Shown in pieces: positions 20,301 through 34,700 of a DNA stretch of 64,000 bases (positions within the stretch are counted from its first letter, which is position 1; the number at the start of each line of letters is the position of its first letter). Below the pieces are notes generated by a model. That model saw only the letters and a program-made list of their open reading frames with translations, searched no databases and was not told the DNA's origin. The stretch is taken from NCBI RefSeq assembly GCF_006345805.1, contig NC_043005.1, positions 20,708,001-20,772,000 on the forward strand, written 5' to 3'. A program made the translations under genes and the position numbers. The stretch is from Octopus sinensis (lineage: Eukaryota).

Positions 20301-22421
20301 GGTGACACCAGTCTTGGAAATGAACCAGAGTCAGTGAGACCTTATGTGTGGAAGATGAAGACTTACTTGATGTGGGTTAACAGCCTAGCACAATCACTTG
20401 TACATTGCTGGCAGAAACTAGTCCTTCACTAACCATCATCAATCAACACCTCCATAAGCTCACCTCTGTGAATAGATGCTGTTAAGAAGATCCTCATGAA
20501 CTGAACAATTACCAGGCTCAACAACGTGTGAACATTTACAAACAACTGATGGCAAATCCACAAGATCACCATTTTTTTGCATCAAATTGTAACTAGGAAT
20601 AAAAATAGTTCTATTTCCATAATCCTAAGAGAAATCAGTGGCTTCATTTTGGCCAGGCTTTAGAACCTGTTGTCAAACAAGTTTGAACAGAAGGTTGTGT
20701 TGTGTGTTTGGTTGAATTTTGAGAGAATGTTACATTTTGAGCTTGTCCCAGATGGTCGTGCTGTGAATGCTAACCTTTATGATCAGTAACTACAGTGAGT
20801 ACATGATGCTTTGAAAGCCTACTACAGTTGACAATGCACACACCCACAGCACAACAGTACTCCAGAACATACTGCCATGGTGAACAAGTGCAAACTTGAG
20901 AAACTTGTGGTGTTGAAAGTGTTGCCCCACACTGACTACAGTCCAGACCTTGCACTGTCAGATTACCATCTTTTCTGAGTCATAGCTTATTTCTTGTATG
21001 GACAGAGAATCAATAGTATGGATGAAGGAAAACAAGTGTAAGAAATTTTTTGCCTCTACGTGAGCCAGGTGGTATAAGTATGGAATTAAGCTTCTGACAC
21101 AATAATGGCAACAGACAATAGAATATGATGAGATATATTTTGATAAATAAACACTTTTTGTATGTAATTTATTTGAACTAATATTTAAAGCTTAAAATAC
21201 ATAAAAAGTTTTGACCCAGCCTGGTATACACATGTACATATGTACACATGCATGCATACAGACAGACAGACACATGCAGACACACAATGGGCCTCTTTCA
21301 ATTTTCATCTATAAATCCACTCATAAGGCTTTTGTAGGCCCAAAGCTATTGTAGAAGGCACTTCTCAAACTGTCATGCAGAACAAAACCTAGAACCATGG
21401 GGTTAAGAAGTAAACTTCTTACCCCACAGCCACACCTATACTTGTTTGTAACACATTTCTCATTTGCAAAATTATCCTCCAGATGCTTTACAATATTTAA
21501 TACATACTAGTATGTATTAAGGTGGATGGGTGAGTATAAAATGTATTTTTTGTTTTCTTTTTTTCAGCTGATAAGCCTCTTCAAATTAAAAAAGTTAGCA
21601 TACCAGAGAAGGATAATATTGGAAGTCTTATGAATGTGAACTTAAAGACATGTAATGAAGCTTGCCTTCAGTATCCAGAATGTAATTCTTATGGGTACAA
21701 TGAGAAAGAAAAACTGTGTTACCTGAGCAATGTGACTCAGTTGACTGCTGAACTTAAACCAAACAATGGAGGTTGGGATGTATACATTATTAAACCAGGT
21801 CAGTAGTGTGTTTCCATTTAATTTGTATATCTGTCAATGTGTACTTGCACATATGTATATGTGTGTGTGTATATATGTTTGTGTGTGTGTGTGTGCATAC
21901 AGCAGTAGAGGGAACCTGTGGGAGATGTAGACCCAGACCCAGGAAGACCTGGGATGAGGTGGTGAAGCATGACCATTGAATATTGGACCTCATGGAGGCG
22001 ATGACAAGTGACCGAGACCTTTGGAGATATGCTGTGCTTGAGAAGACCTGGCAAGCCAAATGAGGCCTTAACTGTGGTCTATGCCAGTACAGCATAACTG
22101 GACCATTTAAGAGTACCCTTCAATCATTGGGCAATAAACTGTGCTTGTGGAGACCTGTTGAGGCAAGTGAAGTCATTGTCATGGCCAATGCCCATACTGC
22201 TTGACTGGTGACCGTGCCAGTGGCATATAAAAAGCACCATTCGGTGACATGTAAAAAGCACACACTACACGCTCGGAATGGTTGGCATTATGAAGGGCAT
22301 CCAGCTGTAGAAATCTTGCCAGATCAGATTGGATTCTGGTATAACCTTCTGGCTTGCCAGTCCTCAGTCAAACCATCCATACCATGCCAAAATGGAAAGC
22401 AGATCTTAAACGATGATGATG

Positions 22422-24423: not shown

Positions 24424-24478
<55 letters not shown>

Positions 24479-24966
24479 ATATTATAAAATATTATTCGAG
24501 ACAAAACCACTATTTTGCAAAACAAACAAGGAAAGACTTAATCAATACATAAAATTTTAATAAATAGTCAAAAAAACCGCCACTACAATCGTTTCTTGTC
24601 TTGATCGACAATCTTCAGGTGGACTTCCAATAATTCAGTGTCAAATTATGAAGTAATTTGACACTGAATTATTGGAAGTCCACCTGAAGATTGTCGATCA
24701 AGACAAGAAACGATTGTAGTGGCAGTTTTTTTGACTATTTATTAAAATTTTATGTATTGATTAAGTCTTTCCTTGTTTGTTTTGCAAAATAGTGGTTTTG
24801 TCTCGAATAATATTTTATAATATTTTACTATAAAATCGATTTAATCCTAAATCTGATTTTTTCCCTGTAAATTTGGATTTATTCCCTAATATTTATTATG
24901 TATGTTTATATATATATGTATATATATATGTATGTATGTATATGTATATATATATATGTATGTATG

Positions 24967-25314: not shown

Positions 25315-25361
<47 letters not shown>

Positions 25362-25562
25362 TTAAATCCTTAAAAATGTTTCAGCCCAAAAGCTGTGGTC
25401 ATGCTGGGGCACCACCTTTGAATGAGCTACACTAGTATGTGAAGCCACCTCTGATATGTGGCTCTTGGTCAACAAGGGAATTTGACACTCCCACATCTGT
25501 GTTTCCTGCTGAGAGGTAGGTTCATCTGGAACCGATGACAAGAAGAGATCCAGTTTAGTATG

Positions 25563-25595
<33 letters not shown>

Positions 25596-25820
25596 GTATA
25601 TGTATATATATATATACACATTCGTATATATATATATGTATTTATATACACATTTGTATATATATACACATATGTATCTATATATATATTTATAGATATG
25701 TATATATATTTATTTATACATATGTATGTATAATATATATGCATATGCATATATATATATATATATAATAATAATAATATATATATATATATACATATAT
25801 ATAGTATATACATATATATA

Positions 25821-25858
<38 letters not shown>

Positions 25859-26475
25859 ATTATATATATATATATATATATATATGCATATGTATATATA
25901 TTATACATACATATGTATAAATAAATATAGTAATATACATCTGGAAAATCCTGGAGGGTCTTATCCCAAACTTTGGCATTCAAAGTTACTCCAACCGCAG
26001 AACGGGGCGCCGCTGCGTGGTGCCAAGGATTCCAACATCACCATCAAAATACAGGTCCAGATACTGCAACAGCTTGGGTTTCAGAGGACCACAGCTTTTC
26101 AACATCCTCCCTAAATGCCTGAGAGACTTACATGGTGTGGATGTGGGTTTCTTTAAAACTAAACTGGATCTCTTCTTGTTGGGAGTCCCAGATGAACCTA
26201 CCTCACGACAGGAGACACGGATGCGGGCAGCAGCATCGAACTCCCTTGTTGATCAAGTGCCACGTATCAGAGGTGGATTCACAAACTAGTGTGGCTCATT
26301 CAGCGGTGGTGCCCCAGCATGGCCGCGGCCTTCGGGCTAAAACATTTTTAAGGATTTAAGGATTTATATACATATCTATAAATATATATATAGATACATA
26401 TGTGTATATATATACAAATGTGTATATAAATACATATATATATATACGAATGTGTATATATATATATACATATAC

Positions 26476-26506
<31 letters not shown>

Positions 26507-27828
26507 CACATACTAAACTGGATCTCTTCTTGTCATAGGTTCCAGATGAACCTACCTCTCAGCAGGAAACACAGATGTGGGAGTGTCAAATTCCCTTGTT
26601 GACCAAGAGCCACATATCAGAGGTGGATTCACATACTAGTGTAGCTCATTCAAAGGTGGTGCCCCAGCATGACCGCAGCTTTTGGGCTGAAACATTTTTA
26701 AGGATTTAAGGATATATATATATATATATATACTATATATATGTATCATCATCATCATCATCATCGTTTAGCGTCCGTTTTCCATGCTAGCATGGGTTGG
26801 ACGGTTCTACTGGGGTCTGTGAAGCCAGAAGGCTTCATCAGGCCCAGTCAAATCTGGCAGTGTTTCTACGGCTGGATGCCCTTCCTAACGCCAACCACTC
26901 CGTGAGTGTAGTGGGTGCTTTTTACGTGCCACCCGCACTGGTGCCAGACAGAGCTGGAAAACGGCCACGAACGGATGGTGCTTTTTATGTGCCACCTGCA
27001 CGAGGGCCAGGCGAGGCTGGCAACGGACACGAAACGGGGCGGTGCTGGCAACGGTTGCGAAACGGAAAGTTCCCTTACATGCCACCGGCACTGGTAACAC
27101 ATCTGCAATTTCCATTGATCGATTTCGATTCTGATCCTCACTTGCCTCAACGGGTCTTCACAAATAGAGTTTCGACATGCCACCGGCACTGGTAACACAT
27201 CCGCAATTTCCATTGATCGATTTCGATTCTGATCCTGACTTGCCTCAACACGTCTTCACAAGTAGAGTTTGTGTCCCAAGAAGGGAAGGTATGCATACGT
27301 AGGCTGGCTCCATCCCATGTAGAAGGCCACAGGTTATGGACTCACTTGTCCTGCCGGGTCTTCTCGCACACAGCACACTTCCAAAGGTCTCGGTCTCTAG
27401 TCATTTCCTCAGTGAGACCTAAAGTTCGAAGGTCGTGCTTCACCACCTCGTCCCAGGTTTTCCTGGGTCTGCCTCTTCCACAGGTTCCCTCAACCGCTAG
27501 GGTGTGGCACTTTTTCACACAACTATCTTCATCCATTCTCGCCACATGACCATACCAGCGCAAACGTCTCTCTTGCACACCACAACTGATGCTTCTTAGG
27601 TCCAGCTTTTCTCTCAAGGTACTTACACTCTGCCGAGTGTGAGTACCGGCATTACACATCCATCAGAGCATACTGGCTTCATTTCTAGCGAGCTTACGCA
27701 TATCCTCAGCAGTCACGGCCCATGTTTCACTGCCATGTAGCATGGCTGTTCGTACACATGCATCATACAGTCTGCCTTTCACTCTGTGCGAGAGGCCTTT
27801 TGTCACCAGTAGAGGTAAGAGCTCTCTG

Positions 27829-27873
<45 letters not shown>

Positions 27874-30800
27874 TAAACAATTTAGGAATGGCCTTAATAG
27901 GCCATTCGTCCACTAGAAAGAGCAGCCATAACTCAAACCGCTAAGTAGTAGTAATTCAGAAATTAGGTGAAAATTTAAAAACGTTTACCCTAATTCATCT
28001 TTATACGATGCATCGTTTCGGTGTTTTTAATGATAAACTAGCCTAATTAAATTAAATTAAATTAAATTAAGTCAATCTACCATGGGTTACACTTCATCAG
28101 TAAAGAAACCGGGAGAGACTGATATACACGAGGCGTATGTATCAATGCCTTCGGAATATCTGTCTTAAAATTTTCAAGACCATCGTATTCGCGCCAACTT
28201 ATCAGCAGTAAATATAAACTGCCGATTCAATTTCAGAATTAGTCAGAAAATTATCAATTAATCAATTTAGGGTAGCAAAAAATTCAAATAGAAATTTATC
28301 GCTACCAGCGGTCTAGTGGGAAAGAGAAAATAGTCAAAGACTAAATATATAAAATCGCTGGTAGCGATAAATTTCTATTTGAATTTTTTGCTACCCTAAA
28401 TTGATTAATTGATAATTTTCTGACTAATTCTGAGATTGAATCGGCAGTTTATATTTACTGCTGATAAGTTGGCGCGAATACGATGGTCTTGAAAATTTTA
28501 AGACAGATATTCCGAAGGCATTGATACAGACGCCTCGTGTATATCAGTCTCTCCCGGTTTCTTTACTGATGAAGTGTAACCCATGGTAGATTGACTTAAT
28601 TTAATTTAATTTAATTTAATTAGGCTAGTTTATCATTAAAAACACCAAAACGATGCATCGTATAAAGATGAATTAGGGTAAACATTTTTAAATTTTCACC
28701 TAATTTCTGAATTACTACTACTTAGCGGTTTGAGTTATGGCTGCTCTTTCTAGTGGACGAATGGCCTATTAAGGCCATTCCTAAATTGTTTAATTTTATA
28801 TATTTAGTCTTTGACTGTTTTCTCTTTCCCACTAGACTGCTGGTAGCGATAAATTTCTATTTGAATTTTTTGCTACCCTAAATTGATTAATTGATAAATA
28901 TATATATATGTATATATATATAACTAGCAGAGTTACCTGGCGTTGCCCATGTTACATACAATTGAAGAATTAGATTTTCTGTTATATTTTCTGTAATGAA
29001 CTGGAATATCTATGTTTCAAATATCATCAAAATTGCAGATGAGGGTTATTTCCCTCTTTACACACCCAAACAAAATAGTAATCGTGCCACATGTATCCCA
29101 TACTACTGATTTTTATGTGCATATTCCAAAATTCCAGTCTTATAGAACCTGTTAAAAGGATTTTGCTCCTGAAAAATGGAGATCATGGAGCTCTAAAATG
29201 TGAGAGTTAATGCCCCTATTGGGAGTGGGCATCTTAATGTCAATCAGAAAAGTTGAATTGTTGAGAATCTTTTTAACATGGGTCTTATATCTATTGTTTG
29301 AATTTCTTTGAAATAGGAAATATATGTTCACTGGGTTTGTAAAAGAGAGCAAAGCTACAGGAAACGAAAAGACAAATGATCACAATAAGCAGTCAGCTAC
29401 CCTACCTCAGTCGTTACCACACCCAATGTAGAATTCCTCACCATGCAGGTGACAGGCGCAGCCGTAAGATGCATTACAAATCTATAGCAATTGGAAGGGC
29501 GTGACCCAACTGAAATAAACATTAACAACTGTGTGATGTGAGAGCTATGTAGAAATGAAAGTTAGAGTTTGCAAATGACCACTATACTGATACATAACTG
29601 GACAGAATAAATTTTACAATCTATAAATGTCTTTGAATAACCAGTTACTCATCTGGGAAGGCCTTGAAATCAATGTTACCATCTGGGGACTATGTGTGAC
29701 CCAGTGATAATAAAAAGACTGAAAGGAGGTCTGCAACCAAATAACTTTACTCAGCACTTTGCAACTGAATCAGTGGAAGCAAAGATGCCTCTCATTTATT
29801 TGACAATTTATTTAGCACATTGCAGAAATCACAATCTAAGTGTATGTCAAAGCAAATTCTTACACTGTTGTACCATTGAATTACAAATAATGCTCATCTT
29901 CTATGCTCGGGTGACCCTACAGATATGGAGTAGCAGCAAGTTCTGACAAGGTGGCAGCTTAAGATTTCATGTGTGGATTCCACCTGTTCATTGCAACTGA
30001 GGTGTATATTGTACAACAGGTATTGAGCTGTGATGAAACTGGCCCCTTTTTGGGGAAAAAAATGCCCAGAAGAACCTACATAACTGCAAAGAAGAAGAAA
30101 ATGCCAGGCCACAAGCCTATGAAAAAATAGCTAACTCTTGCCCTTTGTGCCAAAGCAAGTGGAAACTTGAAGATTAAGCTGCTCCTTGTCTACCATTCCG
30201 AAAGCTCATGAGTGTTCAAGTTGCACATCACCTGAAGGGCAAACATTAAAGTCTGGATCATCAGGCAATTCTCTGAGTGGGTCGACCTTGTCTTCAGGCC
30301 AGCAGTGAAAATATACCTTCTGACGAACATTGTTCCTCACAAGGCCCTCCTCCTCCTTGAAAATGCTCCTGCTCACCCTCCTAACTTCAAAGATGATATC
30401 CTGGATGAATTTTAGTTTATAAAAGTTATGTACCTTTCATGCAACACCACCAGTATCTTGCAGTCCATGGACCAACATGTGATTTCTAATTTTAAGAAAT
30501 CATGCACCAAACACCTGTTTCATCAGTGCTTTGAAGTCACTAAAAATACAATATCTCTGAGTTTTGGATGGCGCACTACAACATTGCCTGAAAATCATCA
30601 ATATGGCCTGGCAGAGTGTAATGAGGAGAACGTTGAATTCTGCATGGAAGAAACTGTGACCTGACAGTGTATCTGAAAGAGATTTTGAGGAGTTTGAGTT
30701 TGAGATACCTGCAATAAAGGAGATAGTATCTCTTGGCAAGTCCATGGGCACTGAGGTAGATGATGGGGACACTAATAATCTCATCAAGGAACACTCAGAG

Positions 30801-31703
30801 GAGTGATGACAGATGAATTCCAGAGGAGGACTTAGCATATGTTGAAGTGTGCAGTCTGCCCAAACATTACAGATATGATACTTTTCACAATGAAACAGCT
30901 TTCATTCCATGTACCTTACTTTCTTATTTCTTTGTTGCCCACAAAAGGCTAAACATAGAGGGGATAAACAAGGACAGACAAAGGGATTACATCGACCCCA
31001 GTGCATAACTGGTACTTAATTTGTCAACCCTGAAAGGATGAAAGGCAAAGTCAACCTCAGCGGAATTTGAACTCAGAACATAACTGCAGACGAAATACAG
31101 CTAAGCATCTCGTCTGGCTTGCTAACGTTTCTGCTAGCTTGCTGCCTTTCTGCCATACAGATACCTCTACATCCACATACGTCATCCAATTCTTTTAATC
31201 TGTAAGTCTAGGTCATTTCGGAGGCAATGTTAGGATTTCATTTTAATCTAAGCTGCTATTCTACATGTTTTTAATGTCAATAATTCCAGCATTGTTCATC
31301 ACAAAATGACCAAGAAACATTTTTATGAAGAAAAGTTGTTTGCTTCACATTCAACTTGTGCTGATACTGCCCATAAGAAAGAAACAAATTCTACAATGTG
31401 GCCGTAGGTCATAGCACCCGGACAATGCTGGTATGCATTGCTTGTATATATATATATATATATATATGTAAGAATTTTTTGCGTAATGTGATAAAAAAAC
31501 CAAGGCTGTATAGATATTAGAGCATTTATAGATAGAAGGTCTTACAGCTGTTTCTAGGATATTAATTAATAATATCGCTTCATCAGAGACGTTGTGAGAG
31601 GAAAAATTAAGTCGTATTTAATTTCGATGTGATACAAATAGAGAGTGAGGTGGAGAGAAAATAGATGTAAGATATGTATGGGTATTGAATTCGTAAATCC
31701 ATT

Positions 31704-31734
<31 letters not shown>

Positions 31735-34700
31735 TGCATTTATGTATGTATTTATATTTGAGTACATATTTCTTCTATTTGTTTCAGTTTGATTTTTGAT
31801 TTTGATTTTTCCAGTTTCAGCTAATGAGCTGTGGCCATGCTGGGGCACCGCCATTAATATATTCTATTTCAAATTTGTCATTATCTTTTCATTTTCACCC
31901 TCCTAACATATATTCGCTATTAATCTCAATTTCTCTTATCACTTCCAGTCATCAGAATAATTGACTGTGGACCTCCAAAAGACATTGCTACTACATCAAA
32001 GTCTTACAATTCCACCACCTATAAATCTGAAGTAATCTATACATGTCCAGGAGGAGAAAAATTAAAATCAGTATGTGAAAAGGACAATGAATGGGCTCCA
32101 TTGTCATCTAGTTGTAAAGGTAATGTAAATAGGTTCTCTCTTCTTGCCTTTACCTATATGAATTATCAAGGTGAAGATGAAAGTAAAAATAGTTTGTTTT
32201 CTTTGGGAAAAGATTCCAAAATCAGTAGTAAAGTGATGTTTCTTGTCATGACCAGACTACTGATATTTAATTACATTCTTTTACATTCTGGATTCAAATC
32301 CTACCAGTAGATACATCACCTTTTATGCTTCTGAAGTTGATAAAAAAGCATTAGTTAAATAGTAAGTTTCATTCATTTTCATGTACCCTCACACTGCAAA
32401 AATTTGTGACTTTATTACCAGCAACAATAATTATAATAATTCTTGTTGAAGGCAAAGGATTGAGAAAATCGTTCAAGCATCAAGCAAAATGTTTTGTGAT
32501 ATTTGTTCTGGCTTTTGAACTTCTGGGTTCAAATCTGGCTTTTGACTACTTTATCTTTCCGAGGCCAATATGTAAAAATGCTGCCAATCAAGGGTAGAAG
32601 TGTATTTTAATCAGCCAATTCCTACCATGACTCTGTTAGTTAATATATTTCTTTGATCTAAATTTTAATTTAATTTCAGTCACTGGCATCCTTTTTTTGA
32701 AAGTAAAAGATGCAATTCTGGATGTATCTGGGAAAATATTGTGGCCTAAGAAAAATGTAACAGCAGAAGCCTGTAAGAAAAAATGTCTGTCTGACAAAGA
32801 TTGTTTATCATTTGAAATAAATAAAGAAAAGGGACAATGTTACTTATCGAAGGGAAGTGCAGCTTCTTCCAAGAAATTAAAGTCAGCCAAAGGCAAAGAT
32901 TACTACCAACGAGGGAAACGTAATTATTATTTGTATTTTATTATTGGTCTGCTTTTTTTCTTTTTTTTTTCTGAAGTTTGTGATTCAGTTTACACTTTAT
33001 GTTATATAGAACACCATTTCTCTTAAAACATTGACAGGTTTACCTATGTGGAGAGACATAAACATGTTCTTGACAAAAAAAAAAGGAAAAAAGACAATAT
33101 TAAGAACTGTATACACTGTTAAAACATTCTGGTACAGCATTTGTTCAACTTGAATACTTTTCTATATATTTTCAGTTGTTTGTTTCTTATTTTAAGTCAG
33201 AAAGGAAACTATTGTTCTTTTACTTAAACTTGAAGAGTAGCAGCAGCAGCAAGTTTTTATTCATTTGTCTATTTTGGCATGACTTATTGCTGGTACAACA
33301 AAGTGTTTCACAAGGGATGTTATGTTCTACATAACACAATATACAAAATAACAGAGAAATAAATGTCAATCTGCAGATTCATGTATTTTCTACATTTTGA
33401 CATGGTTGCTATGGCTGGATGCCCTTCCTATCACCAACCATTATACCACATGAAGAAAATACATTTTCTTATACTGCTAGAATTAGAAAAACTATTTACA
33501 AGGACTAAAGAATCACCTCACTTTAGATAGGTTTCTATTCAAAGTAGTTCCATGGCTTTAAAAACATACAATCCAGCAAATTCAATCAGTTTGAGCACAA
33601 GGACTTTTGTATTCATTTTGAAATCCTTCAACATTGAAATCTTAGACATAAGGGAAAATTCATTAAATTTATTGATCTCAGTATTAAAATACTTGTGCAT
33701 GTAATTATGTCATTACTTTCATGATAAGCCTCTTGGGCCAAAAAGAATGTGCAGCTATTTTTCTGTATAACTATGCAGAACTGCAACTAGGCTGGAGTGA
33801 GAGATATTACTGCAATACTTAACCTGGGCTCCTTCAAAAAGTTCAAGCATATTCAAAGATAAGTTTTGTACAGAGCAAGTAGCCACACAATTTCTGGTAA
33901 TTTCAAAAGCCATGCCATAAAGAGATTTAAGAACTTAACTGGAATCTTCAAGAAATTTGATTTAAACTTAAAGATTACTACTAATCTAGATTCAACTAAG
34001 TGGGTATTATTTTAGAATTGATGTCCTGTATCCAGCAAATAATACTCCTGTATAAAGCCTAACAAGGAGAACAGACACCTTCATAGGAATTTTGACTACT
34101 ATTCCCAAGTTATAAGAAATGTAGTAACTGGCAATTCTAAAAGAACCTCGAATTTATCATCAAATAGATACTTTTGATGGTAATTTTTACAGTGCAAGGT
34201 GCAAACTAGAATTGGCTTTAGTAGGAAGTTAGTATAAACAGAGCATCCTCCATTACTAAATCCAAAGAGAATCAGAAAGAGAATAACTTGATTTAGTCTT
34301 GTCTTTAATGTAAATGTCTCCATGAACATTACAAGAGAAGTTTTATTCTGTTTTACTCAACATTTCTGAGCTATACATAAGTACTACGAGCTTCTGAATG
34401 TGCATTAATTTAAGGTTCATCACTCCCATCTAGACAATATAATTCCAGCATTGTATGTTAACAGAGGCAAACATTTCAGTTATCTGGCCTTTATCCCAGA
34501 CAAAATCAATCTACTTCTTTCTTGAGAGAATTCTGCCATTCTAAGACAATGGTTTACAGAGTAACCTTCACTCCACCCAATGATTTCCTAAATAATTAAA
34601 TGGAGGTCACAGCCGACAGTTTCAAGAAAAGTTATATTCAGCAATTATACTCCTTCAAGTTCATGAACAGGGACAATTCTACCAATCTGTCATGTTTTAT

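What the first reader, a model, noticed from the sequence alone, without database searches (positions are those of the whole stretch)
27868..28897. 482-nt hammerhead-bearing monomer arranged as a long palindrome plus head-to-tail restart (retrozyme/Penelope pLTR-like)
Seen: ~440-bp inverted arms with very few mismatches. The spacer and right flank show that both sides are permutations of one 482-nt tandem unit with no long ORF. The unit carries a type I hammerhead: stem I cttta/taaag, CUGAUGA, stem II with a long AT-rich loop, GAAA, palindromic stem III CGATGCATCG and GUA. The copy antisense to the host gene is intact; the sense copy has GAAA changed to AAAA. Established: Penelope-like elements and retrozymes carry minimal hammerheads in direct or inverted repeats, and retrozymes produce circular RNA. 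Inference: a recent insertion from a self-cleaving, possibly circular RNA; loss of the sense-strand core could protect the host pre-mRNA, although CpG decay explains it equally well.
Basis: partly seen in the sequence, partly recalled or inferred. Interest (0 to 1): 0.75.

Follow-up and report, generated by a model that had tools for sequence, protein, structure and literature searches.

The report
Two-armed hammerhead retrozyme, Penelope-type insertion
This is one young copy of a common non-coding jumping element whose 482-base unit carries a predicted self-cutting hammerhead RNA; nearly every two-armed copy ends at a different fixed point on each arm, which suggests a Penelope-type enzyme likely copied the RNA from both ends of a DNA cut, while cutting and RNA circles remain untested.

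Summary
Two head-to-head arms (27869-28355 minus, 28356-28897 plus) of one 482-nt non-coding unit sit in a (TA)n tract, in an intron of a + strand PAN/Sushi gene. The family is large: 1,333 exact hits to a 17-nt core pattern, 1 for the control. Hammerhead and tail helices covary. The stem II closing pair is a mismatch in most copies, and Rfam gives no hit. Two-armed loci are always head-to-head. Of the 49 with both ends classifiable, 48 have one arm ending at site A and the other at site B, ~97 nt apart, each after a hairpin and the same 9-nt motif. A second retrozyme family and an RT+GIY-YIG Penelope-like family show the same rule. Best reading: a non-LTR retrozyme (non-autonomous Penelope-like element), likely copied by priming from both target strands. 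The artefact and fold-back readings fail. The GAAA loss is ordinary CpG decay: the arms pair in the pre-mRNA anyway. Not shown: cleavage, expression, circles, the driver. The class is known, and this scan reported the same design before, in this genome (e1-8807062) and others.

The parts
27832..27868 (.). (TA)n target tract, left part
   Evidence: (TA x18.5)
27869..28355 (-). Arm B: one full unit, q437-482 + q1-441, whose outward 3' end is at site B
27878..27886 (-). 9-nt motif after hairpin B, just inside the left end (inferred reverse-transcription start B)
27998..28106 (-). Type I hammerhead with intact conserved core; stem I 6 bp, long stem II with an A.C first pair, palindromic stem III, predicted cut between 28004 and 28003
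28311..28355 (-). 45-nt 'spacer' = q437-482 of arm B; the arm-to-arm junction at 28355/28356 has no overlap
28356..28897 (+). Arm A: 1.12 units, q482 + q1-482 + q1-59, whose outward 3' end is at site A
28560..28668 (+). Second hammerhead copy with G12 changed to A at 28647 (CpG transition)
28750..28885 (+). Structured tail: closing helix 28750-28756/28829-28835 around hairpin B, motif B 28780-28788 and a small hairpin; then hairpin A 28842-28877 and motif A 28877-28885
28898..28923 (.). (TA)n target tract, right part
21564..21797 (+). Nearest detected upstream host exon (PAN domain)
31948..32127 (+). Nearest detected downstream host exon (Sushi domain)

Best explanation
This is a young insertion of a ~475-480-nt non-coding tandem element with a predicted hammerhead ribozyme (a non-LTR retrozyme), likely pasted in by a borrowed Penelope-like RT/GIY-YIG enzyme. 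Shown: dispersed copies sit in (TA)n, run from part of a unit to 15 units, and are single-armed or head-to-head two-armed, one arm ending at site A and the other at site B. Inferred: the enzyme, probably a dimer, binds the structured tail and cuts both strands of (TA)n. Each freed 3' end primes reverse transcription, one at A and one at B. The two cDNAs stop at mostly unrelated points and are joined, often by microhomology. Because both arms copy the same sequence, the template must hold more than one unit: a circle or an uncut multimer (about even odds). Inferred: the ribozyme is weak or works as a dimer through its palindromic stem III. This copy is predicted to be silent in read-through RNA because its arms pair.
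For: Copy number and layout. End rule: in 44 loci taken in order along contig C1, 29 are two-armed A+B, 0 AA, 0 BB, 1 has an unclassifiable end and 14 are single-armed; in 34 loci picked by similarity, 19 are A+B, 1 AA, 0 BB, 5 have an unclassifiable end and 9 are single-armed. P for 29 of 29 against a coin toss is 2e-9. The same 9-nt motif precedes both ends. Covariation, tail: 97.7% of cells paired, 9 of 28 pairs with changes on both sides. Covariation, hammerhead stems II-III: 93.4% paired, 6 of 14 pairs. Neither count was reached by any of 500 shuffles or by slid pairings. The unit folds at z = -5.2 as a circle against 60 shuffles. Same rule in a second ~500-nt family: 16 of 20 two-armed loci A+B, 4 unclassifiable, among 28 examined. 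Same rule in an RT+GIY-YIG family with a 784-aa frame: 5 of 5 two-armed loci with both ends seen, among 10 fetched, with a 32-39-nt tail. Both arms here share a 10-nt expansion found in no other family locus held. B-arm 5' ends fall at site B in 7 of 48 loci against 2.1 expected, p = 0.005 uncorrected, 9 tests, as a circle would give. In vitro, an anole Penelope-like protein cuts and extends both strands and starts at two internal sites that bound the tail (PMC11167929).
Against: No driver identified: the unit has no DNA similarity to the coding parts or own termini of the Penelope-like elements in the 64 loci searched. The only link is a short shared motif at end A, noticed after the fact. 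The canonical G10.1-C11.1 pair is present in only 8 of 178 hammerhead copies counted; 151 have A.A or A.C, so activity is uncertain. Rfam gives no hit. No 5' enrichment at the cut site. Against a single-circle template: one 12-unit array shows variants repeating every 4 units, and the outer unit of a 15-unit array differs from the rest at 3 linked sites. A-arm 5' ends are not enriched at site A (1 of 48). The tail is ~97 nt, against 30-40 nt in published elements. Covariation counts come from related copies, so one change is counted many times. The in vitro paper saw no difference in start site between strands.
Confidence: 0.8

Rival explanations
1. Same enzyme and same two start sites, but the template is a linear, uncleaved read-through transcript of a genomic array; circles play no part. 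This is a rival to one step only.
For: Higher-order 4-unit pattern and a mixed array. Mismatched stem II base in most copies. In the anole element, hammerhead cleavage was not needed for insertion in vitro (PMC11167929). Loci with a mismatched pair are slightly longer across all 72 loci scored (p = 0.035) but not in the 42 scored from the unbiased sample (p = 0.17).
Against: B arms, but not A arms, tend to stop at site B, which gives whole-unit lengths (7 of 48 against 2 of 48). The core stays intact in 176 of 178 copies matched (the pattern favours intact copies). The array patterns could have arisen after insertion.
Confidence: 0.5
2. The inverted arm arises by fold-back self-priming of one cDNA or on an antisense template, as proposed for rotifer Penelope elements.
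For: Arkhipova et al. 2013 (PMC3846280, passages) report palindromes at inversion junctions. Six of 48 loci have arms starting within 20 nt of each other.
Against: Chance predicts 4.1 such loci (p = 0.22), and most arm starts are unrelated. Here they are 45 nt apart. Fold-back does not explain two fixed outward ends, each joined to (TA)n.
Confidence: 0.07
3. Terminal-repeat debris of an autonomous Penelope-like element that became a local tandem repeat by DNA-level duplication.
For: Li et al. 2026 (10.64898/2026.07.22.740005) propose this route for the birth of retrozymes. Some arrays show signs of later local turnover.
Against: Arrays lie on both sides of the inversion point and are bounded by the same A and B ends at dozens of dispersed loci. 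None of the 38 contig C1 loci fetched with ~2.5-kb flanks has a Penelope-like RT match; two have short matches to the endonuclease end, 0.8 kb or more from the element.
Confidence: 0.06
4. The G-to-A change in the sense copy was selected to stop the ribozyme cutting the host pre-mRNA.
For: The broken copy is the one on the host's sense strand, and core changes are rare in the family.
Against: It is one of three CpG transitions in that arm, and the unit has 16 CpGs. The sense hammerhead is predicted to be paired to the upstream arm, apart from the changed base, in any + strand transcript.
Confidence: 0.05
5. The palindrome is an assembly fold-back.
For: No read or contig spanning the locus was found (uninformative).
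Against: The arms differ at 6 sites, with derived changes on both; the spacer is the next piece of the unit; the two ends differ; and 47 other loci have the same A+B layout.
Confidence: 0.02

Closest known systems
Metazoan non-LTR retrozymes (Cervera & de la Pena 2020, PMC7229834; passages and Discussion read)
   Same: Non-coding, low-GC (33%) tandem units, each with one type I hammerhead, dispersed as dimers to multimers.
   Different: The unit is ~480 nt against 220-390 nt in their coral, mussel and axolotl examples. The word 'inverted' does not occur in their main text. Their elements were shown to cleave and make circles; here neither is tested.
Retrozymes as non-autonomous Penelope-like elements (Li, Clavereau & Pollet 2026, bioRxiv 10.64898/2026.07.22.740005; parts 1-3 of 5 read; supplements not seen)
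   Same: Same class and same proposed driver; units of 51-972 bp.
   Different: Their evidence is co-occurrence and similarity to terminal repeats in Xenopus. Here the link is the insertion footprint, and no homologous terminal repeat was found. Only 1 of their 9 tested dimers cleaved.
Endonuclease-positive Penelope-like elements: tandem/inverted pLTRs, optional tail, (TA)n targets (Craig et al. 2021, PMC8557442, passages; Arkhipova et al. 2013, PMC3846280, passages)
   Same: Head-to-head inverted arms, a tail often present at one end only, microsatellite targets (Naiads).
   Different: No ORF; the tail is ~97 nt rather than 30-40 nt; the one-A-one-B rule is counted here (48 of 49).
Anole Poseidon element in vitro (Frangieh et al. 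2024, PMC11167929; parts 1-2 of 4 and passages read; supplement not seen)
   Same: Hammerhead upstream of two internal start sites; AT-rich target; both strands cut and extended; predicted dimer.
   Different: They report no strand difference in start site and do not show that one event uses both sites. The genomic copies here imply such coupling.
Minimal hammerheads of Penelope-like elements (Cervera & de la Pena 2014, PMC4209133; parts 1-2 of 4 read)
   Same: Palindromic stem III, an extra base after position 9, pairs of motifs on opposite strands 100-700 bp apart, weak activity expected.
   Different: They find G10.1-C11.1 highly conserved; here it is rare, and stem II is ~75 nt long.

Membership tests
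non-LTR retrozyme | Tandem repeats with one type I hammerhead per unit | tested here: met
   arrays up to 15 units. This locus has no two complete hammerheads in tandem, so it is not an 'active' copy by the criterion of Li et al.
non-LTR retrozyme | No protein-coding capacity | tested here: met
   Longest ATG ORF inside the element is 28 aa; no match to the 781-aa protein
non-LTR retrozyme | Self-cleavage of the RNA | not testable with these tools
   The hammerhead fold is 1.9 kcal/mol above the minimum; the first stem II pair is mismatched
non-LTR retrozyme | Expressed as monomeric linear and circular RNA | tested here: inconclusive
type I hammerhead ribozyme | Conserved core, NUH triplet, three helices in type I order | tested here: met
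   36 copies: stem I pairs 1-4 and stem III pairs 1-4 in 36 of 36, triplet GUC 24 and GUA 12; covariation
type I hammerhead ribozyme | G10.1-C11.1 pair closing stem II | tested here: not met
   A.C in this copy; G-C in 8 of 178. It may be read as an extra base after A9, as in Penelope-type motifs
type I hammerhead ribozyme | Match to an Rfam hammerhead model | tested here: not met
   No hammerhead hit at E<=5; the long stem II is the likely cause (inference)
Penelope-mobilised element | Head-to-head inverted arms, tail at one end, AT-rich or microsatellite target | tested here: met
Penelope-mobilised element | Terminal sequence shared with an autonomous RT+GIY-YIG element | tested here: inconclusive
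   No extended similarity in 64 loci with Penelope-like genes, out of 5,029 endonuclease candidates; short motif at end A only
Penelope-mobilised element | Target-site duplication | tested here: inconclusive
   Cannot be read inside (TA)n
autonomous Penelope-like element | RT and GIY-YIG ORF | tested here: not met

The most novel reading that the evidence does not exclude
A dimeric Penelope-type enzyme binds one circular RNA through a conserved two-hairpin tail domain, assigns site A to one cut DNA strand and site B to the other, and copies the circle round and round from both. The head-to-head arrays would be the genomic footprint of coupled double rolling-circle reverse transcription, and the tail fold shared by several retrozyme families with otherwise little shared sequence would be a portable signal for inserting any RNA into (TA)n.
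Probability: 0.35. Interest if true: 0.72.

Novelty: new member of a known kind. Interest (0 to 1): 0.42.

Why it matters
The class is known, but who moves animal retrozymes, and how Penelope-like elements make their inverted ends and one-sided tail, are open questions (stated in PMC7229834 and PMC8557442). This family gives counts that bear on both. It shows one fixed end per arm in 48 of 49 loci, unrelated inner ends, an excess of whole-unit B arms, and a covarying tail structure. A ~480-nt RNA, a (TA)n target and intact RT+GIY-YIG frames in the same genome make the model directly testable in vitro. For the host, each two-armed intronic copy would put a duplex of hundreds of base pairs into a pre-mRNA.

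Tried and rejected
Rfam scan of 26000-31000: no hammerhead; only weak hits, mostly miRNA models on TA-rich DNA. Sequencing runs: no RNA holder listed. Laying two raw-read DNA runs and two contig sets gave 0 and 1 reads, and short contig pieces of the family with none spanning the locus; this says nothing about this junction. Expression was not examined. Search for the driver: GIY-YIG hits and two young two-ORF RT+GIY-YIG families. No DNA similarity to the unit was found, and a tail profile hit only other non-coding elements and TA runs (output partly cut). An apparent link at L137/L101 proved to be a second retrozyme family in the same (TA)n tract. An apparent pile-up of 5' ends at the cleavage site in the first BLAST table did not survive counting (4 of 102, p = 0.20; 5 of 96). 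The link between weak ribozyme and longer arrays was not significant in the unbiased sample. Motif-based end calling found 23 A+B loci among the 44, missed ends with variant motifs and made one false call per set, so I used the alignment-based classes. For locus L016 I dropped two hits to an older adjacent copy before classing. Literature searches that found no description of this family or of a coupled two-site rule; one search found nothing on the 10.1-11.1 mismatch. The library lacks most subscription papers, and I saw no supplements. PMC12602865 and PMC13282606 (passages) added nothing.

Full report
Observation. The arms lie at 27860-28310 and 28356-28806 (451 nt, 99%), and a 59-nt direct repeat recurs after 482 nt. 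With q = position minus 28356, the minus arm reads q437-482 then q1-~441, one whole unit, and the plus arm reads q482, q1-482, q1-59. The hammerhead strand points outward on both arms, and both end in (TA)n. No ATG ORF over 28 aa lies inside.

The hammerhead. Stem II is a long irregular helix rather than a loop, and the hammerhead fold is 1.9 kcal/mol above the minimum. In 36 copies, the first four pairs of stem I and of stem III hold in all 36, and the triplet is GUC in 24 and GUA in 12. Stems II-III show 6 of 14 pairs with changes on both sides, unmatched by 500 shuffles or by slid pairings; the copies are related, so this is not a probability. Of the first 100 listed hits to a pattern that allows either base at two stem III positions, 99 keep the palindrome (counted by eye). 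Against activity: position 10.1-11.1 is A.C here, and among 178 copies it is A.A in 117, A.C in 34, A-U in 17 and G-C in 8. Rfam gives no hammerhead hit. Cervera and de la Pena 2014 (parts 1-2 of 4 read) describe an extra base after position 9, palindromic stem III, dimer action and weak cleavage in Penelope-type hammerheads, but a conserved G-C pair.

The family. A search with the unit gave 2,013 candidates, of which 40 were scored, with arrays of up to 15 units. The stem III pattern has 1,333 exact hits against 1 for its control. For an unbiased view I took the 44 loci formed by the first 100 listed hits on contig C1 (38 fetched already held). Twenty-nine are two-armed with one arm ending at site A (q45-66) and the other at site B (q426-457); none is AA or BB; 1 has an unclassifiable end; 14 are single-armed. 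Among 34 loci picked by similarity, this one included, 19 are A+B, 1 is AA, 5 have an unclassifiable end and 9 are single-armed. All two-armed loci are head-to-head. The sample requires an intact stem III, so it leans to young copies.

The ends. Both sites follow a hairpin and the same 9-nt motif, ~97 nt apart. The tail forms four helices, with 97.7% of cells paired and 9 of 28 pairs changed on both sides. A similar predicted fold and a short shared motif occur in other non-coding elements of this genome. One of them, a ~500-nt hammerhead unit with 1,393 candidates, has 16 A+B loci among 20 two-armed, with 4 unclassifiable, out of 28 examined; that query favoured loci with end A. A young two-ORF RT+GIY-YIG family (784-aa frame) also has two ends 32-39 nt apart, one on each arm in 5 of 5 two-armed loci with both ends seen, among 10 fetched. 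A few bases before its end A resemble those of the retrozymes, but I found no extended similarity in 64 loci holding Penelope-like genes. The driver is therefore not identified.

Mechanism. Frangieh et al. 2024 (parts 1-2 of 4 read) showed in vitro that an anole Penelope-like protein cuts and extends both strands of AT-rich DNA and starts at two internal RNA sites that bound the tail. They also predicted that it forms a dimer. The copies here fit one event that uses both sites, one per target strand (inference). The inner 5' ends of the two arms are unrelated (6 of 48 within 20 nt, 4.1 expected), and 29 of 48 junctions overlap by at least one base. That argues against the fold-back self-priming proposed by Arkhipova et al. 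2013 (passages). Both arms of this locus carry a 10-nt expansion seen in no other family locus held, so they share a source; conversion between the arms after insertion is not excluded.

Circle or multimer. Since both arms copy the same sequence, the template held more than one unit, or was a circle, or was two molecules. For a circle: B arms stop at site B, giving whole-unit lengths as in this locus, in 7 of 48 cases against 2.1 expected (p = 0.005, one of 9 tests), while A arms do not (2 of 48). Against: A arms show no excess at site A, there is no excess at the cleavage site, one array has variants repeating every four units, and another has a distinct outer unit. I leave this at even odds.

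The broken sense core. The arms differ at six sites. By comparison with other copies, two changes are derived on the minus arm and four on the plus arm, three of those four being CpG transitions, including the G12 change (for q482 the ancestral base is read from the tail sequences). In a + strand transcript the upstream arm is made first and is predicted to pair with the sense hammerhead; by symmetry the same holds for a minus-strand read-through. The protective reading is not needed, and this copy is unlikely to be a source of new RNA.

Artefact. Derived changes on both arms, an asymmetric spacer that is the next piece of the unit, two different ends and 47 other loci with the same layout make an assembly fold-back very unlikely. 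Reads did not test it.

Comparison and novelty. It works like, and is filed as, a non-LTR retrozyme (Cervera and de la Pena 2020, passages and Discussion; Li et al. 2026, parts 1-3 of 5), with cleavage and circles untested. Inverted arms, a tail often at one end only and (TA)n targets are described for Penelope-like elements (Craig et al. 2021, passages). Four searches found no paper on this family or on a coupled two-site rule; supplements and most subscription papers were not seen. After I had formed this reading, the scan's notes showed the same design reported for a ~479-nt unit in this genome and for other units elsewhere; these are not independent evidence. Verdict: real, a new member of a known kind, with counts that make an open mechanistic question testable. 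Interest 0.42.

Noticed in passing
window 24478-24890: A second head-to-head element between TA-rich flanks in the same host region. It is a 345-nt palindrome (98%) with a compact type I hammerhead motif on each arm (cores at 24618 minus and 24684 plus), and one arm runs ~65 nt further. It does not match the 482-nt unit. Rfam gave no hammerhead hit.
   Followed up: partly
window 25339-25709 / 26362-26732: 371-nt inverted repeat (99%) with 652 nt between the arms, beside a long TA-rich tract and a retroelement-like 3' fragment.
   Followed up: no
L101:6990-7460, L137 left part, L152-L181: Second retrozyme family (~500-nt unit, 1,393 candidates) with a U4C core and a mismatch at the base of stem II; same two-end rule. 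In L101 it is joined at the 3' end site of an RT+GIY-YIG element.
   Followed up: partly
L100 and L113:6776-8218; L107:1220-1690; L109:6316-6508; L112:7982-8088; L188:1184-1552: Further non-coding elements that share the tail motif or match the tail profile; some are two-armed, and a hammerhead was seen only in L100/L113.
   Followed up: partly
L098, L182-L195: Two young two-ORF Penelope-like families (781- and 784-aa RT+GIY-YIG frames, many intact, copies up to 98-99% identical) inserted in (TA)n. My scans found no canonical hammerhead near their ends.
   Followed up: partly
L049 and L048: A 12-unit array with variants repeating every four units, the only AA locus and without TA at its left end; and a 15-unit array whose outer unit differs at three linked sites.
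   Followed up: partly
window 2175-61302: Host gene on the + strand made of repeating Sushi, PAN, PAN exon groups; 13 exons detected.
   Followed up: no
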